From: a virus
Virus record (IMG/VR): IMGVR_UViG_3300026484_000390
Span: 4,491-68,490 of that record
DNA length: 64,000 nucleotides
Direction: 5' to 3' (one strand)
Shown: positions 4,079-64,000 of the stretch, in pieces
Position numbering within the stretch: position 1 is the stretch's first letter
How the letters are laid out: the number at the start of each line of letters is the position of its first letter
The notes under the pieces: generated by a model
What the model was told of the DNA's origin: nothing
The model's input: only the letters and a program-made list of their open reading frames with translations
Databases searched by the model: none
Translations under genes and position numbers: made by a program

Positions 4079-4195
4079 ATGATAGAAACAGAAGAATTTA
4101 TAGTTGAAGATATGGGTGTACAAGAACAATGGGTTTATGATATTGAGGTTGAGGATAATCATAACTTTTTTGCTAATGATATATGTGTTCATAAT
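4079..4195 (+). mobile_element. Split intein C-fragment (blocks F and G, ends HN, +1 Ser)
   Basis: MIETEEF...VYDIEV..NHNFFANDICVHN followed by Ser at 4196. Confidence 0.93.
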
Positions 4196-43359: not shown

Positions 43360-44253
43360 ATGCATAAAATAAATAAAGAAAGCAATAACCCCACAAAAGA
43401 ATACATAGAGAAAAATTTCTTTAGAGTAGACGGAGCACTCAATAACCATAAAGTTAAAGCTTCGGGACTCTCCATAGAGTCTATTTTTAACATATATCAC
43501 AACACTAAAACTCCGTTATGTAAATGTGGTAATAAACTTAGTTTACACTCATTTAAAATAGGTTATAGGCAGTTTTGTTCTTCTAAGTGTAGTAATGCAG
43601 ATAAGAAAAAGATACAAAAAGGCATAGATTCAACAGACTATGCTGCTAGAAAAGAAACAACAATTAAATCTCTTAGTTTAAAAGATAAAAGTTACTGGGA
43701 TAACATCATTAATAAAAGGAAGGCTTCCAATTTAATAAGGTTTGGTTTTGAAAGCCATCAAAGTTCACCAGAGTATCAACTTAAAATGAAAAAATATTAT
43801 TTGAAAACTTATGGAGCAGAGACTTATCTGAATTCTGAAATAGGGAAAAAAGCGTCACAACAGACTAAGCTTGAAAAATACGGAAATATTAACTATAACA
43901 ACCCTAAGAAAATTAAAAAGAACGAAAGATTAACAAAAGTAAGTCTGGGTATATGGATAGACGAAGAAGACAAGGAAGACTATGCTTTATATAGAGAAAC
44001 GGTAGTTAAACAAACTGAAGTCAATTATAAAAAATATTACAAAGTTATAAACGAAAATAACCTTAATAGGTCTTATAGAGAATTCCATTTAGATCATAGA
44101 TATAGCATTATAAGTGGTTTTAATAACAATATACCCACTTATATAATAGCATCCCATCATAATTTAGAAATGTTGTTTTGTTTGGACAACATTTCTAAAG
44201 GTGGAAAATGTAGTATATCATTAGATTATTTATTAAGTAATTTTTTTGTATAA
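43360..44253 (+). CDS. Putative HNH-type homing endonuclease upstream of gene 32
   Basis: CKCG..FCSSKC zinc motif, KYG repeats, HLDHRYSI...NLEML..NISK. Confidence 0.75.
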   Translation: MHKINKESNNPTKEYIEKNFFRVDGALNNHKVKASGLSIESIFNIYHNTKTPLCKCGNKLSLHSFKIGYRQFCSSKCSNADKKKIQKGIDSTDYAARKETTIKSLSLKDKSYWDNIINKRKASNLIRFGFESHQSSPEYQLKMKKYYLKTYGAETYLNSEIGKKASQQTKLEKYGNINYNNPKKIKKNERLTKVSLGIWIDEEDKEDYALYRETVVKQTEVNYKKYYKVINENNLNRSYREFHLDHRYSIISGFNNNIPTYIIASHHNLEMLFCLDNISKGGKCSISLDYLLSNFFV

Positions 44254-45383: not shown

Positions 45384-45830
45384 ATGAAAATAAACATAGA
45401 AACATTTAAAAACTATAAGGTAGTTGATAAGAAAAAATTAGGGGAGTATATAGATTTATGCTCCTCTAAAAAAGATAACAAAAAGATTAAATTTAAGACT
45501 GAACTTCATCACATTCTACCAAAAGCACTATTTCCTATTTTTAGTGATTTAAAGGAAAATATTTGGAATGGAGTTTATTTAACTTATAAAGACCATTATG
45601 TAGCTCATGCTTTACTCGCAGAAGCTCTTGATAACTTAAGTATGACTGCAGCCTGGTGGGAAATAAACAATCTTTATCAAAAATCAGAAAAGCTAAGTGA
45701 ACCTAAAGAAATTATAGGTTCAGAAAGATATAATATACTAAGGGAACAGGCTATTAGAGAAATAATTTTTCAATTTCCAAAAAAGGATTTTGATAAAAAC
45801 AGCTCAAAGGATACGCTTCCGATACAGTAA
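45384..45830 (+). CDS. HNH homing endonuclease, probably truncated
   Basis: ELHHILPK...VYLTYKDHYVAHALL; paralogous to the N-terminus of 52012. Confidence 0.8.
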   Translation: MKINIETFKNYKVVDKKKLGEYIDLCSSKKDNKKIKFKTELHHILPKALFPIFSDLKENIWNGVYLTYKDHYVAHALLAEALDNLSMTAAWWEINNLYQKSEKLSEPKEIIGSERYNILREQAIREIIFQFPKKDFDKNSSKDTLPIQ

Positions 45831-50971: not shown

Positions 50972-51787
50972 ATGGCAATACCAATAGACGAAATATTTGG
51001 TGATAACAATCAAGCGAGTAATGGCGGAGGAACACTCCAAGGAGAAGGATTACGAATGGGCATTCCTAGTATCTTTATTAGAACTGGAGGATGCAATTTA
51101 ACTTGTTCAGGATTTGGTTGTACAATTAAATCGGCATTAGATAAAGAAACAATTATAACCGGGTGCGATTCTATACATGCAGTGAATGTGAAGCATTTTA
51201 AGCATACTTGGACTTATTACGATACTGCGTCTGATTTAGTTCAGGCTATTCTTAAACATTATAAAATTAGACCAGAAGGGAATTCCGAAAAGCCTGATTT
51301 AGTTTTTACTGGTGGAGAACCTCTTATTCATCACAGTGACCCTTCTTTAATAGGTGCTTTAGAATATTTCATATCTAGAGGGCATAAAATCTATTTTGAA
51401 ACAAACGGTACCATTCAAATAGATTTTGAGAAATATCCGATTTTTAAAAGAGTTTCTTTTAGTATGTCCGTAAAAATGAGTGCATCGGGGGAAAATAAAA
51501 GTAAAAGATGGAAACCTGAAGTTGTTAATCAATATTTGCTTAATACAGAGGGCTCCTATTTTAAATTTGTTTTAAGTAAAGTATCTATAGAAACAGAAAA
51601 GGCAGAAGTGTTTGAATTTCTTAATCAGGTTCCTACTTTTGGGATAGTTTACTGTATGCCTTTAGGTGAGACTTCTAAAGAAGTACAAGTTAATGCAAAA
51701 GCGGTTTACAACTTTGCCGCAGAACATGGTTTCAGATATTCAGATAGATTACATATTAGAATTTTTGAGGATTTGCGAGGAGTTTAA
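50972..51787 (+). CDS. queE: 7-carboxy-7-deazaguanine synthase (radical SAM)
   Basis: TLQGEG..G.P.IFIRTGGCNLTC...CDS, FTGGEP, ETNGT, RLH. Confidence 0.92.
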   Translation: MAIPIDEIFGDNNQASNGGGTLQGEGLRMGIPSIFIRTGGCNLTCSGFGCTIKSALDKETIITGCDSIHAVNVKHFKHTWTYYDTASDLVQAILKHYKIRPEGNSEKPDLVFTGGEPLIHHSDPSLIGALEYFISRGHKIYFETNGTIQIDFEKYPIFKRVSFSMSVKMSASGENKSKRWKPEVVNQYLLNTEGSYFKFVLSKVSIETEKAEVFEFLNQVPTFGIVYCMPLGETSKEVQVNAKAVYNFAAEHGFRYSDRLHIRIFEDLRGV

Positions 51788-52011: not shown

Positions 52012-53289
52012 ATGAAAGATGAGAATTTTTTCAAGTCCGAATTATCTAAAAGAAAAGTTAAGGACGCAAATAAAATACTAGAATACATATTTTTTTGTAT
52101 TTCTAAAAAAGATCTAAAAACTAACAAGTATATTAAAGGAGTTACTGAACATCATCATATTTTACCCTCTTCCCTCTACCCAGAATATAGTAATCTCAAA
52201 AAGAACGCGTGGAACGGTGTACATCTAACATATGAAGACCATTATAAAACTCACAGTATTTTGGTAGAAGCCCTATCAGATAACAAAATGCTAATGGCTT
52301 GGTTCAATATGGGTAATATTAAAGATTTACATAAAGAAGGATGCTATAAAGAAAGTAAAGAGCGTGCCTTGGAATATTTAAGTAAAACTGTTGTGGCTAG
52401 GCCATTAGGATCATCAGAAAAATATAGAAGAATACTTTTAGAAGATTTTTACAAAGGTAAGTGGGAAATACCCACAGCCAATATGGTACCAGTTTCAAAC
52501 AAAGAAGGACTTAGATTTTCTGTACATAAAGATTATTACCACATCAATAAACACAACCTAAGCCCTTTTATAGGCACAAAAATGCCTGTTCGGGAAGTTG
52601 GGACAGATAAAAAGTTATCTGTATCTTCAGAAGAATTCAAATCAGGCAGATATATAGCTTTATCTAAAGATAGGGTGGGAGCTATAGCAGAAGATGGTTC
52701 TAGGGCTATTGTATCTTCTGAAGAATATGCTAATGGAAATTACTCTCATGCTAATTCTGGAAAAACATCTTGCTTAGATTTAGAAGGTAACAAAGTAACA
52801 GTATCAACAGATGAATACAGAAAAAACAGAAACAAATATATTCATCCTAATGAAGGCAAGATATCAGTCTACAAAAGGGACACATTAGATCAAGTGTTTA
52901 TTACTACCGAAGAATATATCAAAAACAAGAGCAAATACAAAATACCAACTGAAGGAACGCTTACAGCTTATAACGATAAAGGCATAAAAACCAGAATTAC
53001 TAAAGAGGAATATTACAGCAGAGGATACTCTCATTCCAACTCCCTTTTATTGACAGCTAGAGATATCTTAGGAGAAAGTAAAGCGATTCAAGTTACTAGG
53101 GAATTTTATCTGGCGAACAGAAACTACATCCAAAATTCTTCCAAATATGTGTATCTCTATAACGGTCAATATTATAGGTCGGCAGATTTAGTAGAGCTCT
53201 CAGGAAAAGTAAATGTTCCCAGAAAATATAAAAAAGTTAAAATATCAATAAAAGAATATACCGCTATATTAAGTAAGAAAACAGTATAA
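52012..53289 (+). CDS. HNH homing endonuclease with tandem C-terminal DNA-binding repeats
   Basis: EHHHILP..VHLTYEDHYKTH; repeated ..VS.EEY..Y.H.N.GK units. Confidence 0.85.
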   Translation: MKDENFFKSELSKRKVKDANKILEYIFFCISKKDLKTNKYIKGVTEHHHILPSSLYPEYSNLKKNAWNGVHLTYEDHYKTHSILVEALSDNKMLMAWFNMGNIKDLHKEGCYKESKERALEYLSKTVVARPLGSSEKYRRILLEDFYKGKWEIPTANMVPVSNKEGLRFSVHKDYYHINKHNLSPFIGTKMPVREVGTDKKLSVSSEEFKSGRYIALSKDRVGAIAEDGSRAIVSSEEYANGNYSHANSGKTSCLDLEGNKVTVSTDEYRKNRNKYIHPNEGKISVYKRDTLDQVFITTEEYIKNKSKYKIPTEGTLTAYNDKGIKTRITKEEYYSRGYSHSNSLLLTARDILGESKAIQVTREFYLANRNYIQNSSKYVYLYNGQYYRSADLVELSGKVNVPRKYKKVKISIKEYTAILSKKTV

Positions 53290-53319: not shown

Positions 53320-55083
53320 ATGAACAATACCAAACACAAATTAAAATTGACCTATATCAGCTCTGCTATTACATCATTCGCGAGAGCGTCTGGAATTGCA
53401 GAATCAGGGAAGAAAATAGGTATGGAAAAAGAATATCGTAGTTTGATGCAAGATTTACTATATCGAATAGATGGTTACAGCGTTAATTGTGACCACGGCA
53501 CTCTATGGAATGCTCTTACAGAAAAAGGCCATAAAAAAATATTAAAAGGGTTAAACGACCCCCAACGAAAACAGATGATTGTTATGGCCGATTCTGGAGG
53601 TCTCCAACAAATTACCTTAGGTATTAATGTGACAGATGAAGGAAGAAAGGAAATCTTTAGGCGACAAGCGGAATTTAGTACGCACGCTATGAACTTTGAC
53701 GAGATGCCAGTTTTGGTAAATGAAGCTCTTCGAGACAAATTCGCATCACAAGGAAACGGTGATCAAGGACTTAAGCTAAATCATAGTATCAAATATTTTA
53801 TTAAAGAGTTGAGATATGACAGAGGAAGAGAGTCAGGTTTTAACATTAAAGAGCAAATTGATATCATTATAGATTTTAAGAAAAATAACCCAGAAAAAGA
53901 AGTAACTAAAGTTTTAACAATTATACAAGGTTGGGATATCGAAGATTATAATGAATATGCTAGAGGGGTTTATTCGGTTTTTAACGAAATGGAAGAAGCA
54001 GAGAGAGAAAAATATTATGAACATATTGGTGGGATTTCACTAGGAACTTCAGGTATCATTTCTTACTTTAGAATGTTTGATTTATATTGTAGGGCACCTA
54101 TGGATTTAACTAACGTACCTGAAAGATTTAGAAGTTTTATTCATATTCTAGGATTAGGCGGCAATAATAAAAGTGGAGTTTTATTTGCTTTACAAGATAA
54201 TTTTTTCGGAAAAGAAGTTCATTATACTTATGACTCAACATCTCTAACAGCCGCGAGCACTTTTGGTAAACATATAATTTTAGAAGAGAAAACAACTTAC
54301 AAAAAAGGTGAGCAAATAACTTTTATGAATCAGAGATCGCAACAATTAGGAAGAGATATTAGTGATAAGACTGTAGATTTTATGAAAGAAGTTCAAGACG
54401 AATATGCTGATTTATTACAATTACACTTAGGTGATAGTAAAATGAGTGCAGATGATTTTAGAAATAAATATAGCCCCTGGAGAGATGACGGTTGTGCCGG
54501 ATTAAAATCTTTTGAAGATAAATTTGATGGGAAAGACGGATTAATAGCTAGAGAACAATACAATAATGCAATTTCTTTAAATGCATATTTGCATTTTGCT
54601 TTAGAAGCAAAAACTTTTATGAGATTATTGGACGATATGAAAAGAGGGGATTTTAATTCTATTTCAGATAATGAGTACAGAAAAGCAATGGAAAAATTAT
54701 TTACAATTAAAACTTATGACGAATATATGAAAAGAAGAGGGGAATTTAAAGCTATCCTTGGATATATCCCAAATCCGGGTTCTGAAGAAGCTGAATGGTA
54801 TGAGAAGACAAATCGCCCTTTAGAAAATAGTAACGAGAAAAGAAAGAGTACTATGACATATTGCCAAACAGTTGAAGAATTTAATGAAATTTGCAGAAGC
54901 TCTGTTATAGACCCTTTAGACGATTTTATGGGAGATGAAGATCCTACAGAAAATATAGAAAAAATAACTAGGGAGTATGAAAATAGTATTGATATTCCAG
55001 TTAAATTGACAGCTTCTCAACGGGTTAAAGCTGCGGCAGATATTATTTTAAGTAGACACAATTTAGACCCAGAGGAGTGGTAA
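53320..55083 (+). CDS. TGT-fold base-exchange enzyme, DpdA-like (paralogue 1)
   Basis: ADSGGLQ, MNFDEMP, IIQG, GISLG, IHILGLG, YDSTS in TGT order. Confidence 0.75.
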   Translation: MNNTKHKLKLTYISSAITSFARASGIAESGKKIGMEKEYRSLMQDLLYRIDGYSVNCDHGTLWNALTEKGHKKILKGLNDPQRKQMIVMADSGGLQQITLGINVTDEGRKEIFRRQAEFSTHAMNFDEMPVLVNEALRDKFASQGNGDQGLKLNHSIKYFIKELRYDRGRESGFNIKEQIDIIIDFKKNNPEKEVTKVLTIIQGWDIEDYNEYARGVYSVFNEMEEAEREKYYEHIGGISLGTSGIISYFRMFDLYCRAPMDLTNVPERFRSFIHILGLGGNNKSGVLFALQDNFFGKEVHYTYDSTSLTAASTFGKHIILEEKTTYKKGEQITFMNQRSQQLGRDISDKTVDFMKEVQDEYADLLQLHLGDSKMSADDFRNKYSPWRDDGCAGLKSFEDKFDGKDGLIAREQYNNAISLNAYLHFALEAKTFMRLLDDMKRGDFNSISDNEYRKAMEKLFTIKTYDEYMKRRGEFKAILGYIPNPGSEEAEWYEKTNRPLENSNEKRKSTMTYCQTVEEFNEICRSSVIDPLDDFMGDEDPTENIEKITREYENSIDIPVKLTASQRVKAAADIILSRHNLDPEEW

Positions 55084-55084
55084 A

Positions 55085-56101
55085 ATGCACAAAATAGTTA
55101 GAAGTAAAGCACCTTTACGATTAGGTTTTGGAGGTGGAGGGACAGATGTCTCTCCTTTTAGTGACACCCACGGAGGATATGTTCTAAATGCTACTATAAA
55201 CAAATACAGCTATTGTACAATAGAAGAAAACATAAAAGATAATAAAACTTATTTTGAAGCTACAGATATTGGCGAGACTAATGAATGCAATGAAAAAGGT
55301 AAGAGTATAAATGATAAATGTTTACTTTTAACCGGAGTATATAACTCTTTAATAAAGCGCAATCTCATAAAATATACACCACTAAAAATTAGTACTTATT
55401 CTGATGTTCAAGGTGGTTCAGGATTGGGTTCTAGTTCTACAATGGTAGTAGCTATTTTGCAATCTTTTATAGAATATTTCAATATCCCATTGGGAGAATA
55501 CGACATAGCAGAATTAGCTTGGGAAATAGAAAGAAAAGAATTATTATTGCAAGGCGGAAAACAAGATCAATTTTGTGCTACTTTTGGAGGATGGAATTTT
55601 ATGGAATTTAATAAGGATAATACAATAGTTAATCCTTTAAGAATAAAATCAAATTTTTTAAATGAATTATCTGCTAGTTTACTTATTTGTTTTGTGGGAA
55701 AAAGTAGAAACTCTGGAGATGTAATAGCTGAGCAAATTAAATCACAAGGCAAGTCTGAGAGTTCACTAATGAATTTAAAGCAGTCAGCTTTAGATATGAA
55801 AGAAGCTGTACTAAAATGTGATATAAAATCTTTTGGTATAATTTTAAATAAATCTTGGGAAGCCAAGAAAAAAACCTCTCAAAATATATCAAACGAGTAT
55901 ATAGATAAAATATACAATACAGCCATTAAACACGGTGCATTTTCAAGTAAACTTTCAGGTGCCGGGGCATCGGGGTTTATGATGTTTTTAGTAGCGCCTG
56001 AAAAGAAAGTTAATGTTAAGCGAGTACTTAAAGATGAATTTGGACTAAAAGCCGAGGATATACAGTTTTCTAAGGAAGGTGTAGTTTCTTGGCAGGTTTA
56101 A
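55085..56101 (+). CDS. hddA: D-glycero-alpha-D-manno-heptose 7-phosphate kinase
   Basis: RSKAPLRLGFGGGGTD, GSGLGSSS, GGKQDQ, KLSGAGASGF (GHMP). Confidence 0.92.
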   Translation: MHKIVRSKAPLRLGFGGGGTDVSPFSDTHGGYVLNATINKYSYCTIEENIKDNKTYFEATDIGETNECNEKGKSINDKCLLLTGVYNSLIKRNLIKYTPLKISTYSDVQGGSGLGSSSTMVVAILQSFIEYFNIPLGEYDIAELAWEIERKELLLQGGKQDQFCATFGGWNFMEFNKDNTIVNPLRIKSNFLNELSASLLICFVGKSRNSGDVIAEQIKSQGKSESSLMNLKQSALDMKEAVLKCDIKSFGIILNKSWEAKKKTSQNISNEYIDKIYNTAIKHGAFSSKLSGAGASGFMMFLVAPEKKVNVKRVLKDEFGLKAEDIQFSKEGVVSWQV

Positions 56102-56280
56102 GCGACAAAATAGACAAGAATTAAAAACTTCAACTAACTTATAGATAATAAGTGTTTAATGGAACTAAGAGCACATATCTTCTTACTACCAGTATAATTA
56201 AAAACGGTACCTGCAAGAGGTACTGTCTTTTATATAGCTTTAAGGAAAATTCAGTTATAATATAATATAAAGGATAAAAA

Positions 56281-56841
56281 ATGAATACAGATATTATTAA
56301 CCACATAAAGGCATTATCGTCATTAGATAAAGAAACTTTAACTTATTATAAATCAATTGTTAAAACAGCAATTAAACAAAGAAGAACAATTTTTACAGCC
56401 GGCAACGGTGGGAGTGCATCAGATAGTGCACATTTAACTGGAGAAATAGTAGGGAAATTTTTAATTGACCGACCAGGATATCCTGCAGTTGATTTATCAG
56501 CCAATAATACAGTTATAACAGCTATAGGGAACGATTTCGGATACGAAAAGATTTTTAGTAGACAATTAGAATCCGCTGCCAACCAGGGAGATGTGTTTAT
56601 CGGTTTTACAACTTCAGGAAATTCTAAAAATATTTTAGAAGGTGCTAAACAGGCTAAAAAGATGGGATTAGAAGTGTTAATTATATCAGGAAGAGATGGG
56701 GGAGAGATTGCTAAAGAAGGATTTAAGTCTTTAATTGTAAATAGTAACTCTACTCCAGTTATACAGATAGTGCACGGATTTATTTTACATCAAATTGCCT
56801 ATGTAACTGATGAAGTTTTCCGAGAACAAGATGACATCTAA
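56281..56841 (+). CDS. gmhA: Sedoheptulose 7-phosphate isomerase
   Basis: GNGGSA.D.AH..E, TAIGNDFG...FSRQ, TTSGNS.N, IQ..H. Confidence 0.95.
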   Translation: MNTDIINHIKALSSLDKETLTYYKSIVKTAIKQRRTIFTAGNGGSASDSAHLTGEIVGKFLIDRPGYPAVDLSANNTVITAIGNDFGYEKIFSRQLESAANQGDVFIGFTTSGNSKNILEGAKQAKKMGLEVLIISGRDGGEIAKEGFKSLIVNSNSTPVIQIVHGFILHQIAYVTDEVFREQDDI

Positions 56842-57478
56842 ATCTGAAATCTTAGAAAATATACCCGTATTGATATTAGCAGGAGGAAGAGGAACTAGAT
56901 TGCAGTCAGAAGTATCAGATAGAGCCAAACCAATGGCTGATATAAACGGTAGGCCGTTTATGGATTTATTATTAGAGAAATATAAAAAACACAAAATTTA
57001 TATTTCTGTAGGATACAAAAAAGAATCTATTATAAATGCGTATAAAGATAAATATGAATATATTATAGAAAATGAGGCTTTAGGAACTGGTGGTGCTATT
57101 AAAAAGGCATTTACTGAGACTAAAGTTAATAAAATGATAGTCTTAAACGGAGATACTTATACAGATCTTAATATTACTTTAAGAAAAGAGAGTGTTGTTA
57201 TTAATACAGTTTATCAAGAAAACTGTCACAGATACGGGCTTGTAACTTCTGTAAACGGAAAAATTCACTTTAAAGAAAAGGGTTACAACGGTGAGGGTTG
57301 CATCAATTCTGGAGTTTATATTATAGATAAAAAAGTGCTGGCAGATGAACCAGATATTTTTAGTTTTGAAGACTTTTTAACAAAATATGATGATATTGGT
57401 ATTATAGAACATAAAGCTAGTTTTATAGATATTGGAGTTCCTGAAGATTATAGGAAGGCGGTAAAACAATTTGGATAA
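56831..57478 (+). CDS. hddC: Heptose 1-phosphate guanylyltransferase
   Basis: ILAGGRGTRL, KPMA, LGTGGAI, LNGDT, FIDIGVPEDY; next to hddA, gmhA and gmhB. Confidence 0.88.
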   Translation: MTSKSEILENIPVLILAGGRGTRLQSEVSDRAKPMADINGRPFMDLLLEKYKKHKIYISVGYKKESIINAYKDKYEYIIENEALGTGGAIKKAFTETKVNKMIVLNGDTYTDLNITLRKESVVINTVYQENCHRYGLVTSVNGKIHFKEKGYNGEGCINSGVYIIDKKVLADEPDIFSFEDFLTKYDDIGIIEHKASFIDIGVPEDYRKAVKQFG

Positions 57479-57941
57479 AATATTATTTTTAGATAGAGAT
57501 GGGGTCATCAACAAAGACCCAAACGGATACACTTATGATTATAACACTTTGGAATATAATAAAGACTTAATAGAATATATTAGTAGAAATTTTAACGATT
57601 ATATTAAGATAATAGTGACCAATCAGTCGGGAATAGCACGAGGAAAATATACTAAGAACGATTTTTTAGAATTAAGTGCCTATATAATAAATGATTTAAA
57701 AAAGTTTGAAATAATAATTGATGAAATATATTATGCTCCTTATTTGCCTGATAGCAATCACTTTGATAGAAAACCTAACCCGGGTATGATTATTAAGGGA
57801 TTAATGAAATATAAAATTAATCCCAAAAACTGTATAATGATAGGTGATAAGGAAACGGATAGAGAGGCAGCGAAACACGCTGGAATTGATAACTTTATAA
57901 TGTATAAGGAAGGATTATATTATGATAAGGATAATTGGTAA
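57471..57941 (+). CDS. gmhB: Heptose 1,7-bisphosphate phosphatase (HAD)
   Basis: FLDRDGVIN, VTNQSGIARG, RKPNPGM, MIGDKETD. Confidence 0.95.
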   Translation: MDKILFLDRDGVINKDPNGYTYDYNTLEYNKDLIEYISRNFNDYIKIIVTNQSGIARGKYTKNDFLELSAYIINDLKKFEIIIDEIYYAPYLPDSNHFDRKPNPGMIIKGLMKYKINPKNCIMIGDKETDREAAKHAGIDNFIMYKEGLYYDKDNW

Positions 57942-58647
57942 CGGTGCAATAGGTAAATATTTACTGACTGATAATAGTTTTGAGATGTTTCCTAGGTTCT
58001 CTTTGGAAAACTATATTTCTAGTAAGGAAAATATTTTAAGTTATGGTAAAGGTAATACTTTTATATTTACAGCAGGAATGAGTAAACCTCAAGACTGTGA
58101 AGAAAATTTTGTATTATTGGGAAAGATAGTTAATGGAACAATAAAAGCTATTAAGGATATAGCTATTCATAATAAAGTACTTTTTTTGAGCTCAGATGTT
58201 GTAAAAGGTAGAAGTACATCGTATTCTTGGAGTAAAAAAGAAATAGAAAAGAATCTTTTGGAAATTAATAATGTTAAAGTAGCCAGACTGTCTTATGTAT
58301 TCTCGGATGTAAAAGGATTTGAAGACCCTTTTACTAAATATGCTATACAAGAAGAAAAAGCAATAGAAGTTTATGCAGACCTTAAACGAAATATAATTCA
58401 TATTAAAGATGTTAAAGACGGAATTATCGAAATATGCAGTAATTTTAAAAAAGCACCTGATATTATTAGCTTAACTGGCAAAAACTGTATAGACAAAAGC
58501 ACTCTATTGCAGTATATTAAGTGTGAATATAATATAATAACAGACACTAAGGCGATAGAAAAGTTTTTTAAAAATAGAGATAAATATATTTCTGTTGAAC
58601 CAAACTTTTATATGCCTAAAATCGATTTAACCAAAGGAAGAGAATGA
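57922..58647 (+). CDS. RmlD-like NAD(P)-dependent 4-keto sugar-nucleotide reductase
   Basis: IIGNGAIG, FLSSD, YSWSK (YxxxK), ARLSYV. Confidence 0.75.
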   Translation: MIRIIGNGAIGKYLLTDNSFEMFPRFSLENYISSKENILSYGKGNTFIFTAGMSKPQDCEENFVLLGKIVNGTIKAIKDIAIHNKVLFLSSDVVKGRSTSYSWSKKEIEKNLLEINNVKVARLSYVFSDVKGFEDPFTKYAIQEEKAIEVYADLKRNIIHIKDVKDGIIEICSNFKKAPDIISLTGKNCIDKSTLLQYIKCEYNIITDTKAIEKFFKNRDKYISVEPNFYMPKIDLTKGRE

Positions 58648-59705
58648 GCAATACAAAAATTAAAAAAGTATTATTAACAGGCATAACAGGACAAGTGGCA
58701 TCGATATACGCCGATTTTTTATTAGCAAATACTGATGTTGATATTATAGGATCACTTAGGTGGCAAGAACCTATAGATAATATTAGACATTTAACCGATA
58801 GAATAAACAAAAAAGATAGAATCCTTACAGAGTTCGCAGATTTGAATGATTATAGCAGCTTTGAAAGATTAATTAAAAAGCATAAACCAGATGTGATTGT
58901 TTCACTTGCAGCTGAGAGCTACCCTACAACAAGTTTTTCAAATCCATTAATAACTATGCAAACAAACATTTTGGGTACTAATAATATTCTAGAAATTGTT
59001 AGAATTATGAAAGAAGAAGAAGGATATAATCCACTAATACACATAGTAAGCTCTTCTGAAGTTTATGGGAAAGCTAGTTCCAATAAAGATGGTAAAGACT
59101 TATTAATAGGCGAGGAAACAAAGTTTCACGGTGCAAGTCCATACTCTATTTCTAAAATAGCTACAGACTATTTAGGTCAATTTTATGGTGAAGCTTATAA
59201 TATGAACACAGTAGTAACAAGGTTAGGCACTCATACAGGAGCTAGAAGAGGTTCTGTATTTGTAGAATCGGTAATGGCTAGAAAACTGGTCGAAATTGAG
59301 ATGGGCTTACACAAACCAGAAATCCTAATGGGTAATTTGGAAAGTATTAGGACATTTCAAAATGCTAGGGATGCAGTTAGGGCTTACTGGTTGCTTACTT
59401 TAGAAATGGAAAAAGGTAATATTAAGAAAGGTGACTATTTTAATATAGCAGGAAATGAAAAATTTAAACTATCTGATTTATTAGAAACTATGAAGCAGAA
59501 AATAAATTATAAAAATAAAATATCAGTAGGTATAGACCCAGATAGACTTAGAGTAATTGATGCTGATTATCAACTTTTTGAATGTGATAAAATTAAAAAA
59601 GTTATAGATTGGGAACCTGAAATTTCTATGGATGATACTATTGATGAACTTTTAGATTATTGGAGAACTGAATACAAAGAAGGCCGAGTCCCTTTAGACA
59701 GATGA
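58644..59705 (+). CDS. dmhA: GDP-D-manno-heptose 4,6-dehydratase (DmhA/WcbK-like)
   Basis: LTGITGQV, RWQEP.DNI.HL.DRINKKDRI, LAAESYP.TSF, SSSEVYG, SPYSISK; recalled as closely resembling Campylobacter DmhA. Confidence 0.88.
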   Translation: MSNTKIKKVLLTGITGQVASIYADFLLANTDVDIIGSLRWQEPIDNIRHLTDRINKKDRILTEFADLNDYSSFERLIKKHKPDVIVSLAAESYPTTSFSNPLITMQTNILGTNNILEIVRIMKEEEGYNPLIHIVSSSEVYGKASSNKDGKDLLIGEETKFHGASPYSISKIATDYLGQFYGEAYNMNTVVTRLGTHTGARRGSVFVESVMARKLVEIEMGLHKPEILMGNLESIRTFQNARDAVRAYWLLTLEMEKGNIKKGDYFNIAGNEKFKLSDLLETMKQKINYKNKISVGIDPDRLRVIDADYQLFECDKIKKVIDWEPEISMDDTIDELLDYWRTEYKEGRVPLDR

Positions 59706-60017
59706 GTTACAAAAAGTAAATAAAACTGAAAGAATCCAATAATTAAGTAAAAAATTCTTAATGATATAGTTTTTCTGAGTTCTAAATATATAATAACATT
59801 ACTTAATATAAATAAATATAAGAGGAAATAAATGAGAAATATAAATACCAAAAAGAAAAGGGATATATTATGTTAAAAAGAGATAATCAAGATTATCATT
59901 ACAATACTCATTATAATAAAGAGAAGAGAACCCACTTTTTAGGGCCTAAATCTTATGAAATGTTGAGCATAGAAAAATTCGATTTATACAAATGTAGAGT
60001 GGACGAAGATAGATAAA

Positions 60018-61496
60018 ATGGTATTCAGATATATAGTGGCAGGATTTGCCTCAGGTGCTCAATTTACTTTAGCGAATAAAATGTACCCTGAATTTACAAA
60101 AGCGATAATGAATAAGATACACCCAAACTCTTTAAATCTAAGTCTGGGAGTATTGAGTAATGCTTATACAGAGAAAAGAGAGCTTAAAGCTTTATTTGAG
60201 CAGTTACCTGATATACCAAAATATAGTGACTCAGGTGCTCTTCAAGTCCTCACAAGGGGTCTTGAATTTGATGAAAAAATGAGGAAAGAAGTTTATACAA
60301 GACAAATAGAAGAATCAGATTATTGTATGAGTTTTGATGAAATGGCTACAGAAATTTTAGACGAAACAACTGACTTTGGAGTAGCAACTTCTCTAAGCAC
60401 ACGAGGTAGATTTTTTGTAGATAATAAATTTCAAGAAGCGGGTAAAATATCTGCTATGAATATTTTTAAACAGATACAAGTTTTTAAAGAAAACAGTACA
60501 ACACCCAAAGACAAAATTCTTATTATACTGCACGGTAGAAGTTTTGAAACCTACAGAGAATACGCTTGGTTTCTATTTAAGGAACTAAAAATTCTATGCC
60601 CTAATTATTTAGATTACTGTAAAGGACTAGCAATAGGTTCATCTGCAGGTGCGGGATTAGGAAACTACTTTGACTTTATGATGAGATTTCAGCATGAGAT
60701 GGAATTTGTTCCTCTAAAACTTAGGCAGTATTTGCATATTTTGGGGGCTGGTGGTGTTACAAAAATAGCTCCTTTGTTTATGATTCCCAAATCTTATTGG
60801 CTCAAAGATACAATTATTAGCTCAGACAGTACTAGACAAAGCAAAGCTATTAAATTTGGTAATTTTGTGGGATATGATAAAAATAGTTTTAAACGAGAAG
60901 AAATAATGACCAACGGAATATACGACGGCCCTAGGACTCAAAGTATTCTTACTAAGATTTATGACGAATTTAAAACAGAACTTAAAATTATAAATTGCAA
61001 TAGTTATACAGATTTTCAAGAAAACTTTACGCAATACAACTCAGAAAGGAAACGGGTTAAATCTGATTTTGAAACAGATGACTCTTATCATAATGCAGTA
61101 AATATATTCTCTTTTTTATGGGCTAGTAAAATGATTATTGACCTATTTAGTCACTTAGAAGCCAGTTCATCTGTAAATACTAATGAATTACAAACTCTTA
61201 CAAAGTGGCCAAGCAATCTCATAAATCTTATAAAAAATTGTAATAAGCATTCTGATTATATTACAGAAACAATCTCGGGGCATCCCTACAAAGGAACCCA
61301 AGCAACAGATAAAATATCAGATGGCGAACTCAGTAGAGAAATCTTTAGTTATCAGAACGGCCATAGGACCGTTGCAGTAGATGGTTCTGTAAGAAGCATT
61401 CTTTTATCTTCTTTAACAGGCCTTAAACAAAAAACTATCAAAAGAAATACAGATTCTACCAGTTTATTAGAGGAATTCAACGACGAAGAGTGGTAA
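60018..61496 (+). CDS. TGT-fold base-exchange enzyme, DpdA-like (paralogue 2)
   Basis: SDSGALQ, MSFDEMA, ILHG, GLAIG, LHILGAG, SDSTR. Confidence 0.72.
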   Translation: MVFRYIVAGFASGAQFTLANKMYPEFTKAIMNKIHPNSLNLSLGVLSNAYTEKRELKALFEQLPDIPKYSDSGALQVLTRGLEFDEKMRKEVYTRQIEESDYCMSFDEMATEILDETTDFGVATSLSTRGRFFVDNKFQEAGKISAMNIFKQIQVFKENSTTPKDKILIILHGRSFETYREYAWFLFKELKILCPNYLDYCKGLAIGSSAGAGLGNYFDFMMRFQHEMEFVPLKLRQYLHILGAGGVTKIAPLFMIPKSYWLKDTIISSDSTRQSKAIKFGNFVGYDKNSFKREEIMTNGIYDGPRTQSILTKIYDEFKTELKIINCNSYTDFQENFTQYNSERKRVKSDFETDDSYHNAVNIFSFLWASKMIIDLFSHLEASSSVNTNELQTLTKWPSNLINLIKNCNKHSDYITETISGHPYKGTQATDKISDGELSREIFSYQNGHRTVAVDGSVRSILLSSLTGLKQKTIKRNTDSTSLLEEFNDEEW

Positions 61497-61743: not shown

Positions 61744-62109
61744 ATGTCAAAAACAATTAAGAAAGAGGTTTTTTGCTCCCTAAGCATAGACGGAATACAC
61801 AGATGGGCTAATTGCCCCATTGAAGAGGTCTCTTATTTAAGAGATGATCATAGGCATATGTTTGGAATTAAATGCTATTCAGAAGTAACTCATAATGATA
61901 GAGATATAGAATTTATAGAGCTAAAACACAAAATTTTAGACTATATGAAAGAAAAATATTACGATGATGCTTTGAGAAGTCATTACTTTGGTAGTTCAAG
62001 CTGTGAAATGATTGCTGAAGAACTTATCAACAAATTTAATTTAACAGCTTGTGAAGTAAATGAAGACGGCGAAAATGGTTCTATTTTAAAGGTAGTACAG
62101 AATGACTAA
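61744..62109 (+). CDS. QueD/PTPS-like T-fold protein
   Basis: GIHRW, HRH.F, DRDIEF, SCE.IA, EDGENG; near queE. Confidence 0.75.
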   Translation: MSKTIKKEVFCSLSIDGIHRWANCPIEEVSYLRDDHRHMFGIKCYSEVTHNDRDIEFIELKHKILDYMKEKYYDDALRSHYFGSSSCEMIAEELINKFNLTACEVNEDGENGSILKVVQND

Positions 62110-63112
62110 AACAATTTGGGTAGTAGATATTGAGTTACTTACCAATAGATATACTGGACAATGGAGAGAAAATGTACCTGAAATTTTCTCTAAAGAAACT
62201 GGACTAGTTATTAAAACAATTTCAGGAACTGATTATGAAGGAACCACTTCAGGTGGATTTTTTGATTTCACTAAAACAATGAAATACAAAGCAGAACAAC
62301 AAATTAAAATATCAGAGATGTTATCTGATGGTACAATCAAAGATGGAGATTATATATTTTATACCGATGCTTTTACTCCAACAGTAATGGCCACTCAATA
62401 TATGATTAATATGACTGATAGACGAGTGAAGCAATATGGATATATTCACACCAATTCTTATGATTCATCAGATATTTTGGGTATTAAAGGAAATAATCAT
62501 TGGGCAAAACATTTTGAGACAAGTATGTTTGAATGTTTGGAAGAAATTTATGTCGCAACTAATTATCACTTAGACCATCTATTAGTTAATTTCCCCCAAT
62601 ACAAAAATAAATTTAAAGTATCAGGATGTCCTACTAATTTAACAGAATTAGAACAATATGTTTCTACAAATAAAGAAAAAATTATAGTTTTTCCTCATAG
62701 AATTAATGAAGATAAACAACCACATTTATTTGAAGCGATGAAAGAACACTTTCCAGACTATGATTTTATTTATACTCAAGGTGAAAAAAGAACAAAGGAA
62801 GAATATTATACTTTATTAGGAAAGGCAGAAATTGTAATGAGTTTTGCTTTACACGAGAATTATGGAATCGCGACATTAGAGAGCTTACATCTAGGTGCTA
62901 AGGTAATTATGCCTAAAGACAAAAGTTATACAGAAATGTACTCGGGAGGCCTTTTATATGATAGAGAACTAGAGAAAGATATACCTGCACTTGCACTCAG
63001 AATAAAAGAAATTTTGGATGACGATAAATTGCAGGATTATTTAGATTACAGCAAAAAAAATATAGCTGAAAACTATTGTTCCTTTAAAAAAGCTTGTTCT
63101 TTATTAAATTAG
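62102..63112 (+). CDS. GT-B (GT4-like) glycosyltransferase
   Basis: IVFPHR...KQP, ENYGIATLES (Ex7E); overlaps the QueD-like gene. Confidence 0.85.
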   Translation: MTKTIWVVDIELLTNRYTGQWRENVPEIFSKETGLVIKTISGTDYEGTTSGGFFDFTKTMKYKAEQQIKISEMLSDGTIKDGDYIFYTDAFTPTVMATQYMINMTDRRVKQYGYIHTNSYDSSDILGIKGNNHWAKHFETSMFECLEEIYVATNYHLDHLLVNFPQYKNKFKVSGCPTNLTELEQYVSTNKEKIIVFPHRINEDKQPHLFEAMKEHFPDYDFIYTQGEKRTKEEYYTLLGKAEIVMSFALHENYGIATLESLHLGAKVIMPKDKSYTEMYSGGLLYDRELEKDIPALALRIKEILDDDKLQDYLDYSKKNIAENYCSFKKACSLLN

Positions 63113-63113
63113 A

Positions 63114-64000
63114 ATGAAAAACTCTACATCAGAAAAAATAGAACAAGCTCTAAAAAATAGAAATATAAGTCACATAGTGCTCTCCAAGGAAACTGTGAGT
63201 ACCATGCTTAAAGAAGCCTGTTTTATATGTTCTAGGCATGGTTATTTCAAAGCTAAACCTAAATCTGTAATAAATGCCAAATGGTCAGGTTGCAAGAAAT
63301 GTGACAGTATATATCTAAAAGAATATGTATCTGTAATAAATAAAAAAGCCTTTATACAGTCTATAAATGACAGGTACCCAAATATGTTTAATACAGGCTG
63401 GGACAATGTACTCTATACATCAGGAGATAGCCTTGTGGAGATGCAGTGCTATAAGCACGGTTTAATTATATTGAAAAAAAGTAATTTTTTGGGCGGAGGG
63501 TGCAAACAATGTAACAGAGAAGCTTTTTTTCGTAATAAACTAGAGAAGTATATTAAAAATTTAGGAAAAGAAGGTTTTTCTTTTGAAAACAGCGTATGGT
63601 CAGGATGGCATAAAGATTTTAAGGTTTCTTGTGCAAAGCATGGAGAAATAGTCACCACTCCCGCTAGCTTAAAAGACTATGGATGCAAACAATGCAACGA
63701 TTCCAAAAGAGTATTCAGTGGGGTACGACCACCTGAATACTATAAAGATAGGCCTGTTATTTTGTATCTAATAGAAATAAAATTTTGTAATAAAAGTTAT
63801 TACAAAGTAGGATTAAGCGTCTCTACAACTAAGGCTAGATATTTACGAGAGGGAGCACAATTTGAATATAACATAATTAAAGAATGGCTTTACAAAGATG
63901 GTGAACGGGCTGCCCGTTTAGAGTATGAGGTGTTGCAAGATAGCATAGAATATCAAGTACACAATCATAAAATATCAGGTATTATACCTTCTGGTGGAGG
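63114..64000 (+). CDS. Homing endonuclease with three CxxHG..GCxxC zinc repeats and a GIY-YIG-like domain; runs off the window
   Basis: Manual translation: CSRHG..GCKKC, CYKHG..GCKQC, CAKHG..GCKQC, then ILYLIEI..YYKVGLS..KARY. Confidence 0.8.
   Translation, partial: MKNSTSEKIEQALKNRNISHIVLSKETVSTMLKEACFICSRHGYFKAKPKSVINAKWSGCKKCDSIYLKEYVSVINKKAFIQSINDRYPNMFNTGWDNVLYTSGDSLVEMQCYKHGLIILKKSNFLGGGCKQCNREAFFRNKLEKYIKNLGKEGFSFENSVWSGWHKDFKVSCAKHGEIVTTPASLKDYGCKQCNDSKRVFSGVRPPEYYKDRPVILYLIEIKFCNKSYYKVGLSVSTTKARYLREGAQFEYNIIKEWLYKDGERAARLEYEVLQDSIEYQVHNHKISGIIPSGG

What the first reader, a model, noticed from the sequence alone, without database searches (positions are those of the whole stretch)
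53320..61496. Two divergent TGT/DpdA-like paralogues with different base-pocket residues
Both proteins (587 and 492 aa) keep the TGT catalytic DSG, MxFDE, HxLG and DS motifs. They differ at the position corresponding to the guanine-contacting Gln of TGT (IIQG vs ILHG) and in DSGGLQ vs DSGALQ. Inference: they insert two different bases, act in different sequence contexts, or act sequentially (exchange, then remodelling). One might target tRNA rather than DNA.
Basis: partly seen in the sequence, partly recalled or inferred. Interest (0 to 1): 0.72.

Follow-up and report, generated by a model that had tools for sequence, protein, structure and literature searches.

The report
Two DpdA2 DNA base-swapping enzyme paralogues
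A large T4-like phage carries two diverged copies of a known enzyme type that swaps guanine in DNA for a 7-deazaguanine base, placed either side of a sugar-making gene set, so it may decorate its DNA in a way not yet described.

Summary
ORFs 53320-55083 (A, 587 aa) and 60018-61496 (B, 492 aa) are paralogues (28% identity, E 4e-31) and carry the motifs as written. Both fold confidently as tRNA-guanine-transglycosylase TIM barrels (Z 16.9 and 17.7). By sequence they belong with DpdA2, the phage DNA 7-deazaguanine insertase shown experimentally in Vibrio phages nt-1 and VH7D.

They sit in a 7-deazaguanine island: QueE, A, a GDP-(6-deoxy)heptose cassette, B, DpdL (proposed CDG decarboxylase, motif LxxxHRHxF), then a GT1-like glycosyltransferase. 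DpdL and this glycosyltransferase are adjacent in 90 of 94 related loci and never occur with QueC.

The Gln/His difference is real but not special. It is a two-state site (297 Q, 43 H), and the active nt-1 enzyme has His. B's DSGALQ is unique, and B lies on a long branch.

A and B belong to sister clades that each serve alone in other phages. Other large phages carry up to six copies.

My reading is two active DNA transglycosylases with different specificity. Whether they differ in base or in sequence context is unresolved, and nothing supports a tRNA target. This is a new variant of a known kind.

An unchecked first-reader note (e1-6167757) already flagged the heptose cassette on this same stretch.

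The parts
50972..51787 (+). QueE-like radical SAM enzyme (7-carboxy-7-deazaguanine synthase type)
   Evidence: phrog_2076 'QueE-like radical SAM domain', E 1.9e-47. Five NCBIfam QueE models hit at E 1e-12 to 1e-9, all below their curated cut-offs. A QueE homologue lies beside the DpdA2-like gene in 130 of 156 related loci.
52012..53289 (+). HNH homing endonuclease inserted between QueE and paralogue A
   Evidence: phrog_12434 and phrog_655, HNH/homing endonuclease. In relatives L082 and L083, QueE abuts the DpdA gene directly.
53320..55083 (+). Paralogue A, DpdA2-like DNA 7-deazaguanine transglycosylase (Q form, DSGGLQ / IIQG)
   Evidence: Sits in an 18-member clade (support 100) with orthologues in the same position in L082 (51% identity) and L083 (39%).
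55085..56101 (+). HddA-like D-glycero-D-manno-heptose 7-phosphate kinase
   Evidence: NCBIfam NF049969, E 1.6e-107, 359.9 bits, below the cut-off of 600. Pfam GHMP kinase N and C domains.
56281..56841 (+). GmhA-like sedoheptulose 7-phosphate isomerase
   Evidence: TIGR00441, E 3.1e-44, below cut-off. Pfam SIS_2.
56810..57478 (+). HddC-like heptose 1-phosphate guanylyltransferase
   Evidence: NF049965, E 7.7e-41, below cut-off. Pfam NTP_transferase.
57471..57941 (+). GmhB-like heptose 1,7-bisphosphate phosphatase
   Evidence: NF050049, E 2.2e-33, below cut-off. Pfam HAD families.
57922..58647 (+). 241-aa protein of unknown family; a possible reductase or epimerase step (my inference only)
   Evidence: No significant Pfam, PHROG or NCBIfam hit. 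Conserved in the same slot in L082 at 44% identity.
58644..59705 (+). GDP-mannose 4,6-dehydratase-like enzyme (would make a 6-deoxy-4-keto sugar)
   Evidence: Pfam GDP_Man_Dehyd, E 2.4e-64. TIGR01472, E 5.6e-43, below cut-off.
59807..60017 (+). Intergenic stretch before B with two TATAAATA motifs (59807, 59840) and a small ORF of about 48 codons ending just before B's ATG
   Evidence: The motif is not enriched in the window (32 found against 24.6 expected), so this is weak evidence.
60018..61496 (+). Paralogue B, DpdA2-like transglycosylase (H form, DSGALQ / ILHG, FDEMA), on a long branch
   Evidence: Sits in an 11-member clade (support 99) with a terminal branch of 0.98 against 0.21 for A. 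Departs from the family at four conserved columns: S8A, G74A, P110A and Q172H.
61744..62109 (+). DpdL homologue (QueD paralogue, proposed 7-carboxy-7-deazaguanine decarboxylase)
   Evidence: The sequence reads LRDDHRHMF, which fits the DpdL signature LxxxHRHxF given in PMC10516641 (passage). tblastn hits Cellulophaga phage phiST at 36.9% identity, E 2e-13. Atlas neighbours include PTPS-bearing viral clusters. Pfam PTPS itself gives no hit.
62102..63112 (+). GT1-like glycosyltransferase, the conserved partner of DpdL
   Evidence: Pfam Glycos_transf_1, E 6.8e-5, 22.9 bits, below the cut-off of 26.4. Atlas: virus-only GT1-like clusters, TM 0.91-0.94. Follows DpdL within 700 nt in 90 of 94 loci.

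Best explanation
A and B are both working members of the DpdA2 subfamily of TGT-fold enzymes. After replication they cut guanine out of the phage's own DNA and put in a 7-deazaguanine base. That base would be made by the island's FolE/QueD/QueE/DpdL route, which lacks QueC. The two copies are not redundant. I commit to the reading that they differ in the base they accept. A would be the island's resident enzyme and would take the DpdL-route product, 7-deazaguanine or a derivative of it. B comes from a sister clade that elsewhere works alone in islands without DpdL, and its pocket has since been remodelled. B would take a different precursor, of the carboxy or cyano type, or a sugar-bearing one.

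Shown here: the fold, family membership, retained catalytic motifs, gene context, and divergence at pocket positions.

Inferred: that both copies are active, that the target is DNA, and which base each takes.
For: Fold and family.

DpdA2 enzymes insert preQ0, preQ1 or CDG into DNA in E. coli. VH7D DpdA2 gave 2765, 712 and 67 modifications per 10^6 nt for preQ1, preQ0 and CDG. nt-1 DpdA2 inserted preQ0 (passages of PMC10516641; PMC6884629).

Both copies keep D, D, D, H and L at the invariant columns.

Pocket-level differences:
- Q203 in A against H172 in B. In the two tested enzymes, Q goes with accepting preQ1 (VH7D) and H with preQ0 only (nt-1).
- B's Ala in DSGG is unique: the column reads G in all 176 other rows and in 119 of 120 locus proteins, with 1 gap.
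- The loop after the GGxSLG strand aligns next to TGT's GGLAVGE region. It differs in length and composition between A (LGTSGIIS) and B (IGSSAGAGLG), and between paralogue classes in other phages, yet it is conserved within each class.

All five multi-copy genomes or contigs (window, G004, G005, L168, L197) hold both Q and H forms.

Ancestry: the B-type relatives G001, L166 and L167 are the only copy seen on their contigs, in QueE-DpdA-FolE...QueD islands without DpdL. The A-type relative in G002 sits in the same heptose/DpdL/GT island as here.
Against: - No assay was possible, and I had no access to model coordinates, so the pockets were compared by sequence only.
- DpdA2 enzymes are promiscuous (VH7D inserted three bases), so a second enzyme is not strictly needed for a second base.
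- The Q/H site shows no link with island type: H in 9 of 70 DpdL-type and 4 of 36 QueC-type proteins. It flips at least 19 times on the tree. Q and H differ by a single third-position base change, so much of this could be neutral.
- G004 has six copies but, in the stretches I read, one QueE and one DpdL. Six different bases seems unlikely, which favours the sequence-context rival.
- G004, G005, L168 and L197 are one lineage, so the pairing of Q with H has only about two independent origins.
- The A-type relative G003 sits with QueC, so clade does not map cleanly to island type.
- B's long branch and unique substitutions also fit decay.
Confidence: 0.36

Rival explanations
1. Same base, different DNA sequence contexts. 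Each paralogue recognises a different motif around the target G. Two copies here, and up to six elsewhere, would then raise the share of G that is replaced and widen protection against restriction enzymes.
For: DpdA enzymes are motif-specific. Phage iggy DpdA has a strict GA motif, and CAjan is modified at two motifs (title and abstract in the listings). [quoted passage not shown] PA5oct carries DpdL and GT homologues. DpdA2 insertion levels are low in nt-1, about 0.1% of G. Copy number reaches 6 in G004 and 4 in G005, more than the number of plausible bases. The catalytic motif columns are nearly identical across paralogues.
Against: The segments that differ most sharply between paralogue classes include the Q/H site and the loop next to the GGLAVGE-equivalent region. 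By analogy with TGT (recalled, not tested) these line the base pocket rather than the nucleic-acid surface. No motif data exist for any member of these clades.
Confidence: 0.3
2. B is not an independent catalyst. It is either a decaying or redundant copy, or a non-catalytic partner of A, in the way eukaryotic TGT pairs the catalytic QTRT1 with its paralogue QTRT2.
For: B's terminal branch is 0.98 against 0.21 for A. B departs from the family at four conserved columns, including the otherwise invariant second Gly of DSGG and Pro of FDEMP. The closest relative island, G002, lacks B and has an unrelated 706-aa ORF in its slot. Heterodimeric mouse and human TGT structures are among the fold hits.
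Against: The ORF is intact at 492 aa. D71, D107, D270, H240 and L242 are all retained. The model is confident (pLDDT 86.7). The substitutions are mild (G to A, P to A, Q to H), and His occurs in the active nt-1 enzyme. QTRT2-type subunits have lost catalytic residues (recalled), whereas B has not.
Confidence: 0.17
3. Sequential action. One paralogue inserts a first base. The other then exchanges that base for a second one, possibly sugar-bearing, or works only on DNA that is already modified.
For: TGT-type exchange is reversible in principle (established knowledge, recalled). The island encodes tailoring steps (DpdL, GT, heptose cassette) whose order relative to insertion is unknown. B has its own upstream TATAAATA motifs, which might mean different timing.
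Against: There is no precedent in the passages I read: tailoring on DNA is done by non-TGT enzymes such as DpdM and ArcS2. The TATAAATA motif is not enriched in the window, 32 found against 24.6 expected.
Confidence: 0.07
4. One paralogue modifies tRNA (host or phage) rather than DNA.
For: The fold is that of tRNA-guanine transglycosylase.
Against: There are no tRNA genes in the window. Both copies lack the CxCxxC zinc motif that E. coli TGT has, and neither hits Pfam TGT. Their nearest tested relatives act on DNA. 130 of 163 family members carry an aromatic C-terminal tail, which resembles replisome-docking peptides; that resemblance is recalled, not tested.
Confidence: 0.03

Closest known systems
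DpdA2 of Vibrio phages nt-1 (YP_008125322) and VH7D (Hutinet et al. 2019, 2023; passages read)
   Same: Same HMM family and the same PHROG. 27-32% identity over 257-320 residues. All are TGT-like proteins without the CxCxxC zinc motif. All are encoded in T4-like phages next to deazaguanine synthesis genes. The Q/H site matches VH7D in A and nt-1 in B.
   Different: A and B lie in a separate 35-member superclade (support 97) away from nt-1. They are longer, 587 and 492 aa against 464 and 458. Two copies sit in one island. That island has DpdL, a GT and heptose genes instead of QueC, ArcS or QueF. Their tails end in EEW.
Acidovorax phage ACP17 island (QueD, FolE, gp123 DpdA2-like, gp124 GT, gp125 DpdL, gp126 QueE)
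   Same: A cultured T4-like phage with the same DpdA2-GT-DpdL-QueE module. Identities: GT 32.5%, DpdL 34.7%, and gp123 28-29% to A and B.
   Different: One DpdA2-like gene in the 18.8-kb stretch read, and no sugar cassette there. Its dpdA plus dpdL gave no dDG in E. coli, and the authors suggested that other enzymes may be needed (passage). The GT lying between them is not mentioned in that paper's main text: 'glycosyltransferase' and 'sugar' occur 0 times.
Bacterial tRNA-guanine transglycosylase (Z. mobilis and E. coli TGT) and bacterial DpdA (PDB 7ui4)
   Same: The TIM-barrel fold, with Z 16.9 and 17.7. The motifs DSGG(F/L)Q, FDE, QG, (L/H)xxGxG and the Asp after the last strand (the last one by position only). 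7ui4 is rank 4 for B.
   Different: No Pfam TGT hit and no zinc motif. A helical C-terminal domain of its own. The substrate is DNA, by inference from DpdA2.
Cellulophaga phage phiST system (DpdA3 plus DpdL, giving dDG in place of all G)
   Same: A DpdL homologue with the same signature. The pathway logic is FolE/QueD/QueE/DpdL without QueC.
   Different: phiST uses DpdA3, not DpdA2. It did not appear among the 23 phage records that hit the GT.
Heptosylated 5-hydroxymethylcytosine made by metagenomic phage gene clusters (bioRxiv 10.1101/2023.12.21.572611; passages)
   Same: A phage-encoded nucleotide-heptose supply next to a GT-B glycosyltransferase in a DNA-modification island.
   Different: That system builds on 5hmC made by a methyltransferase/TET pair. 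Here the neighbours are deazaguanine genes. No thymidylate-synthase-family (dCMP hydroxymethylase) gene was found in G000, G001, G002 or G004; all four are incomplete records.

Membership tests
TGT superfamily (fold level) | (beta/alpha)8 barrel of tRNA-guanine transglycosylase | tested here: met
   Foldseek lists TGTs at probability 1.00. VIA-align gives Z 16.9 with 295 aligned (A) and Z 17.7 with 296 aligned (B).
TGT superfamily (fold level) | Catalytic and base-binding motifs: Asp in DSGG, Asp in FDE, Gln before Gly, and the nucleophile Asp after the last strand | tested here: met
   hhalign aligns the first three motifs with E. coli TGT. D91/D127/D305 in A and D71/D107/D270 in B sit in columns conserved at 99-100%. 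B has His in place of Gln. Equating D305/D270 with the TGT nucleophile is by position only, because the hhalign alignment stops before it.
Pfam TGT (PF01702), canonical tRNA-guanine transglycosylase | Match to the family HMM above its gathering score | tested here: not met
   0 Pfam families at E<=0.01 for either protein. 0 PF01702 matches in the record, while all 14 control genomes matched.
Pfam TGT (PF01702), canonical tRNA-guanine transglycosylase | Zinc site CxCxxC...H after the barrel | tested here: not met
   No CxCxxC in A, B, nt-1, VH7D or ACP17 proteins. E. coli TGT has CDCYTC.
DpdA2 subfamily of phage DNA transglycosylases | Sequence homology to nt-1 YP_008125322 and VH7D DpdA2 | tested here: met
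   A against nt-1 E 7e-26 and against VH7D E 1.6e-24. B against nt-1 E 2e-22 and against VH7D E 2.4e-21. The tblastn match lies under nt-1 VPFG_00171. All join in one tree, but A and B sit in a separate superclade.
DpdA2 subfamily of phage DNA transglycosylases | Encoded beside 7-deazaguanine base synthesis genes | tested here: met
   QueE lies 1.5 kb upstream and DpdL 250 nt downstream. FolE and QueD follow the GT in the syntenic relative G002. In the window the contig ends there.
DpdA2 subfamily of phage DNA transglycosylases | Lacks the conserved His196 of DpdA1 (stated in PMC6884629) | not tested
   I made no alignment with DpdA1.
DpdA2 subfamily of phage DNA transglycosylases | Inserts a 7-deazaguanine base into DNA | not testable with these tools
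   Needs expression and LC-MS.
DpdL (proposed CDG decarboxylase), for ORF 61744-62109 | Signature LxxxHRHxF in place of QueD's CxxxHGH | tested here: met
   The ORF reads LRDDHRHMF, against the definition. 65 of 67 distinct homologues keep the signature and 0 have CxxxHGH.
DpdL (proposed CDG decarboxylase), for ORF 61744-62109 | Found with DpdA, FolE, QueD and QueE but without QueC | tested here: inconclusive
   This holds in related loci: no locus has both DpdL and QueC. The window's own record is only 31% complete, so QueC could lie elsewhere.
GDP-D-glycero-alpha-D-manno-heptose pathway (GmhA, HddA, GmhB, HddC) | All four enzymes, each scoring as an equivalog | tested here: inconclusive
   Each ORF's best NCBIfam hit is the expected heptose enzyme (E 1.6e-107, 3.1e-44, 2.2e-33, 7.7e-41), but all four are below the curated cut-offs. 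Four matching steps in a row make the pathway likely.

The most novel reading that the evidence does not exclude
The island writes a sugar-bearing 7-deazaguanine into DNA. DpdL and the GT, a pair that recurs widely and excludes QueC, would make or finish a glycosylated deazapurine. In this phage and in G002, the GDP-6-deoxyheptose cassette would supply an unusual donor. The two DpdA2 paralogues would then handle the plain base and the bulky or precursor base separately. That would be the first glycosylated purine analogue in any DNA, and it would explain why ACP17 dpdA plus dpdL alone gave no product.
Probability: 0.17. Interest if true: 0.88.

Novelty: new variant of a known kind. Interest (0 to 1): 0.62.

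Why it matters
DpdA enzymes are how phages write 7-deazaguanines into DNA to escape restriction and CRISPR. In what I could search, one DpdA per genome is what is described. Three things here, if confirmed, open testable questions.

1. Some phages keep two to six diverged DpdA2 copies, with both a Gln form and a His form in every multi-copy case seen. This gives a natural set of variants for learning what sets base or motif specificity in this family.

2. DpdL is almost always followed by a virus-specific glycosyltransferase, and the pair replaces QueC. That includes cultured phages such as ACP17 and the PA5oct group. This may be the missing step in the dDG-type pathway, or it may point to an undescribed modification.

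3. A GDP-(6-deoxy)heptose cassette lies inside such an island. That makes a sugar-bearing deazaguanine a concrete hypothesis that mass spectrometry could settle.

I found no mention of multi-copy DpdA or of this GT in the main texts searched. Supplementary tables, which were closed, might already list them.

Tried and rejected
- **Plain sequence routes to TGT failed.** Pfam and NCBIfam gave 0 hits. phmmer and a 32-sequence profile against PDB sequences gave only chance-level hits, E 0.2 or worse. Megablast of the 8.2-kb region against phage records gave no match.
- **Single-protein scans of viral contigs found no relatives**. Alignment-based scans did.
- **My first label for ORF 61744-62109, 'QueD-like', came from a recalled His pattern.** Pfam PTPS gave no hit even at E 10, and BLASTP against the nt-1 PTPS-like protein gave nothing. 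The DpdL identification rests on the published motif and the phiST homology.
- **The 706-aa ORF in B's slot in L082 is not a hidden DpdA.** hhalign probability is 0.3%.
- **The Q/H residue does not track island type**. I rejected that idea.
- **I considered hmC glycosylation as the target of the GT and heptose genes.** No thymidylate-synthase-family gene was found in G000, G001, G002 or G004. These records are incomplete and a methyltransferase/TET route was not searched, so this is weakened, not excluded.
- **The sigma-70 promoter scan was uninformative:** 65 sites found against 66.9 expected.
- **Complex prediction of A (residues 1-480) with B (residues 1-420) returned 'no answer', score 0.00**. 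This is no evidence either way.
- **The trees are FastTree only,** with local SH-like support. I ran no AU tests.
- **Many IMG/VR loci are near-duplicates of the same phage populations.** Locus counts are therefore not independent. One search removed identical proteins, leaving 120 distinct.
- **Rows left out of the tree and the column analysis:** proteins shorter than 380 aa.
- **Papers.** For PMC6884629, PMC10516641, PMC12028318, PMC7824862, PMC12191111 and the two bioRxiv preprints I read only the passages returned by 'find'. For the iggy and CAjan papers I saw only the title and the start of the abstract in listings.
- **Recalled and not tested here:** TGT residue numbers and roles, the QTRT1/QTRT2 analogy, the DmhA/DmhB names, and clamp-binding tail motifs.

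Full report
**What is there.** The window is the last 64,000 bases of a 68,490-base IMG/VR virus record that CheckV puts at 31% complete. GC content is about 24-33%. It encodes T4-type replication proteins: gp32, RNase H, a split family-B polymerase with intein pieces, a primase and a clamp-loader-like protein. The two ORFs of the finding lie exactly where stated: A at 53320-55083 (587 aa) and B at 60018-61496 (492 aa), both on the + strand. A has ADSGGLQ, NFDEMP, IIQG, HILGLGG and YDSTS. B has SDSGALQ, SFDEMA, ILHG, HILGAGG and SDSTR. A and B are paralogues, with 28% identity over 331 residues and E 4e-31.

**Are they TGT/DpdA-like?** Ordinary searches do not show it.
- Pfam and NCBIfam find nothing for either protein.
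- Pfam TGT finds nothing in the whole record, while all 14 control genomes match.
- Searches of PDB sequences, with single proteins and with a 32-sequence profile, give only chance-level hits.
- Both proteins hit phrog_10773, of unknown function.

Homologue searches gave 5 and 27 proteins at E<=0.001, each count including the query itself. A profile search of 1.84 billion representatives gave 558 proteins at E<=0.001 and 351 at E<=1e-30.

With a 113-sequence alignment, AlphaFold2 gave confident models: A at pLDDT 90.8 and pTM 0.87, B at pLDDT 86.7 and pTM 0.88. Foldseek against the PDB gave 77 and 136 hits at E<=0.001. The rows listed are tRNA-guanine transglycosylases, and for B the DNA preQ0 insertase DpdA (7ui4) is at rank 4. 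VIA-align gave Z 16.9 (rmsd 4.2, 295 aligned, 2qzr) for A and Z 17.7 (rmsd 4.1, 296 aligned, 2pwv) for B.

hhalign of the family alignment against E. coli TGT gave probability 93.3% and E 2.7e-7. It aligned DSGGLQ with DSGGFQ, FDE with FDEC, IxQG with IIQG and HxLGxG with YLMGVG. The last Asp (DST) lies beyond the aligned stretch, and I equate it with the TGT nucleophile by position only. The CxCxxC zinc motif of TGT is absent from A and B.

**Which family exactly?** tblastn of A against 50,697 phage records hit 71 of them: Vibrio 48, Stenotrophomonas 16, and Pseudomonas, Acidovorax and Xanthomonas 2 each, plus Synechococcus 1. In Vibrio phage nt-1 the match lies under VPFG_00171 (YP_008125322), between FolE and QueC. 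Hutinet et al. 2019 named that protein DpdA2 (passage). The 2023 paper reports that VH7D DpdA2 inserts preQ1, preQ0 and CDG into E. coli DNA, and that nt-1 DpdA2 inserts preQ0 (passages). Pairwise E-values of A and B to these two proteins run from 2.4e-21 to 7e-26. A and B are therefore diverged members of the DpdA2 kind of DNA transglycosylase.

**Context.**
- Upstream lie a QueE-like radical SAM gene (50972-51787) and an HNH homing endonuclease (52012-53289), which splits QueE from A.
- Between A and B lie six genes. Four have as best hits HddA, GmhA, HddC and GmhB, the four steps to GDP-D-glycero-alpha-D-manno-heptose. All four score below the NCBIfam cut-offs. The other two are a 241-aa protein of unknown family and a GDP-mannose 4,6-dehydratase-like enzyme.
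- After B come a 121-aa ORF and a GT1-like glycosyltransferase.

The 121-aa ORF reads LRDDHRHMF. That fits the signature LxxxHRHxF by which Hutinet et al. 2023 separate DpdL, their proposed CDG decarboxylase, from QueD (CxxxHGH) (passage). It also hits Cellulophaga phage phiST at 36.9% identity, E 2e-13, and 65 of 67 distinct homologues keep the signature.

An earlier first-reader note on this same stretch (e1-6167757) had already proposed a GDP-6-deoxyheptose pathway nested in a 7-deazaguanine island. My gene calls agree with it.

**Relatives.** Alignment-based scans gave 156 IMG/VR loci and 37 metagenome loci. Among the 156, a QueE homologue is present in 130, FolE in 139, DpdL in 101, the GT in 94 and QueC in 40.
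- Of the 89 loci with at least 4 kb on both sides, 49 show QueE+DpdL+GT+FolE and 31 show QueC. None has both DpdL and QueC.
- After removing identical proteins, 70 are DpdL-type, 36 QueC-type, 14 neither and 0 both.
- The GT follows DpdL within 700 nt in 90 of 94 loci.
- The commonest gene order is QueE-FolE-DpdA-DpdL-GT, in 43 loci, with a further 20 adding QueD.
- Many loci are near-duplicates, so these counts overstate independence.

Cultured phages carry the same pair. ACP17 has QueD, FolE, gp123 (DpdA2-like), gp124 (GT), gp125 (DpdL) and gp126 (QueE). PA5oct-like Pseudomonas jumbo phages, Sinorhizobium phage Phosso, Burkholderia phage BCSR5, Xanthomonas phages BUDD and X1 and Synechococcus phage BUCT-ZZ01 also have both genes. 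phiST has DpdL but did not appear among the GT hits. The 2023 paper's main text mentions neither 'glycosyltransferase' nor 'sugar'. It reports that ACP17 dpdA plus dpdL gave no dDG in E. coli. PA5oct DNA resists five restriction enzymes, which its authors read as a modified G in GA and/or GG.

**The closest island.** L082 (record G002, 105 kb, 61% complete) has QueE, an A-type gene (51% identical to A), the same six sugar genes (44-66% identity), a 706-aa ORF, DpdL (88%), a 160-aa ORF, the GT (73%), FolE and QueD. The 706-aa ORF sits where B sits here and is unrelated to DpdA. G002 has a single DpdA2-like gene. Because FolE and QueD follow the GT in G002, and the window's contig ends within a homing-endonuclease gene just after the GT, their absence here is most simply a contig-end effect. 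QueC was not found in G000, G002 or G004, but was found in G001 and G005.

**How A and B relate.** The tree is a FastTree of 178 sequences on the first 370 residues.
- A falls in an 18-member clade (support 100) and B in an 11-member clade (support 99).
- The two clades join in a 35-member group (support 97), apart from nt-1 DpdA2.
- B's terminal branch is 0.98 against 0.21 for A.
- Members of each clade occur as the only copy on other contigs. A-type is alone in G002 and G003. B-type is alone in G001, L166 and L167, in QueE-DpdA-FolE...QueD islands without DpdL.

The pair is therefore not a recent tandem duplication. I found no other contig with A-type and B-type together.

Multi-copy arrays do recur in another lineage: six copies in G004 (224 kb), four in G005 (306 kb), at least three in L168 and at least two in L197.

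**The pocket residues.** Forty alignment columns are at least 80% conserved. At these, A departs five times, all mild changes in columns conserved at 81-91%. B departs five times, four of them specific to B: S8A (92% column), G74A (100%), P110A (98%) and Q172H (84%).

The Q/H column takes only two residues, 297 Q and 43 H among 340 aligned sequences.
- nt-1 DpdA2 has H. VH7D and ACP17 have Q.
- On the tree it changes at least 19 times.
- It shows no link with island type.
- B's clade-mates all have Q, so B gained His on its own.

All five multi-copy genomes or contigs hold both forms, but four of them belong to one lineage.

The loop after the GGxSLG strand abuts the region aligned with TGT's GGLAVGE. 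It differs in length and make-up between A and B and between paralogue classes. Within a class it is conserved across genomes that are 50-65% identical overall. B's Ala in DSGG is unique in everything I aligned.

**Reading.** What is shown is two intact TGT-fold proteins of the DpdA2 kind, with complete catalytic motifs, inside a DpdL-type 7-deazaguanine island. That both are active on DNA is inferred from tested relatives.

Why there are two remains open. I put 'different bases' first (0.36). The differences I can see sit at positions that, by alignment with TGT, lie near the base. B also descends from a clade that serves islands without DpdL.

'Same base, different sequence motifs' is close behind (0.30). 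Known DpdA enzymes are motif-specific, and six copies in one genome are hard to match with six bases.

B as a decaying copy or non-catalytic partner gets 0.17, sequential action 0.07 and a tRNA target 0.03.

**Novelty.** The enzyme family, DpdL and the general island are known. In the texts I could search, I did not find three things:
- multi-copy DpdA2 sets with paired Q and H forms;
- the near-constant DpdL-GT pair that replaces QueC;
- a GDP-(6-deoxy)heptose cassette inside such an island.

Supplementary tables, which were closed, may bear on the first two. I rate this a new variant of a known kind.

Noticed in passing
window 61744-63112; loci L002-L157; ACP17 (L164 8992-10404): DpdL is followed by a virus-specific GT1-like glycosyltransferase in 90 of 94 loci, and the pair never co-occurs with QueC. 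Cultured phages carry the pair too: ACP17, PA5oct-like phages, Phosso, BCSR5, BUDD, X1 and BUCT-ZZ01. The GT may be the 'other unknown enzyme' invoked when ACP17 dpdA plus dpdL gave no dDG.
   Followed up: partly
window 55060-55083 and 61473-61496 (C-termini of A and B); family proteins P0001-P0167: 130 of 163 family members of 380 aa or more end in an aromatic residue at the last or second-to-last position. Of these, 22 end in (D/E)W, nearly all in the A/B superclade, and many others end in xLF. This looks like a docking peptide, perhaps for a replisome protein such as the sliding clamp or gp32. That resemblance is recalled, not tested.
   Followed up: partly
G004 (L003, L074, L159), G005 (L004, L062), L168, L197: Large uncultured phages carry 6, 4, at least 3 and at least 2 DpdA2-like genes, often as adjacent pairs of one Q form and one H form. 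The orthologous paralogue classes are 50-65% identical between genomes.
   Followed up: partly
L003 11448-17923: In the six-copy phage, the slot between the DpdA paralogues and DpdL-GT holds an FAD oxidoreductase, a short-chain dehydrogenase, a second GT1, a radical SAM/SPASM enzyme and an 826-aa protein of unknown family. This is a different tailoring cassette in the position that the heptose genes occupy here.
   Followed up: no
L082 16121-18241: A 706-aa ORF with no family hit and no similarity to DpdA occupies the slot where B sits in the window.
   Followed up: partly
window 52012-53289, 63114-63998, 45384-45830, 43360-44253: Several HNH/homing-endonuclease genes are scattered through the replication and modification region. 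One splits QueE from A, and one runs off the contig end just after the GT.
   Followed up: no
window 59807-60017: Two TATAAATA motifs and a small ORF of about 48 codons lie directly upstream of B. The nearest + strand TATAAATA upstream of A is at 48599. This may mean separate timing of A and B, but the motif is not enriched in the window.
   Followed up: partly
window 556-2982 and 4079-5053: Family-B DNA polymerase pieces with weak intein-splicing-domain matches (below Pfam's cut-off) lie at the end of one ORF and the start of another, with a 349-aa ORF between them.
   Followed up: no
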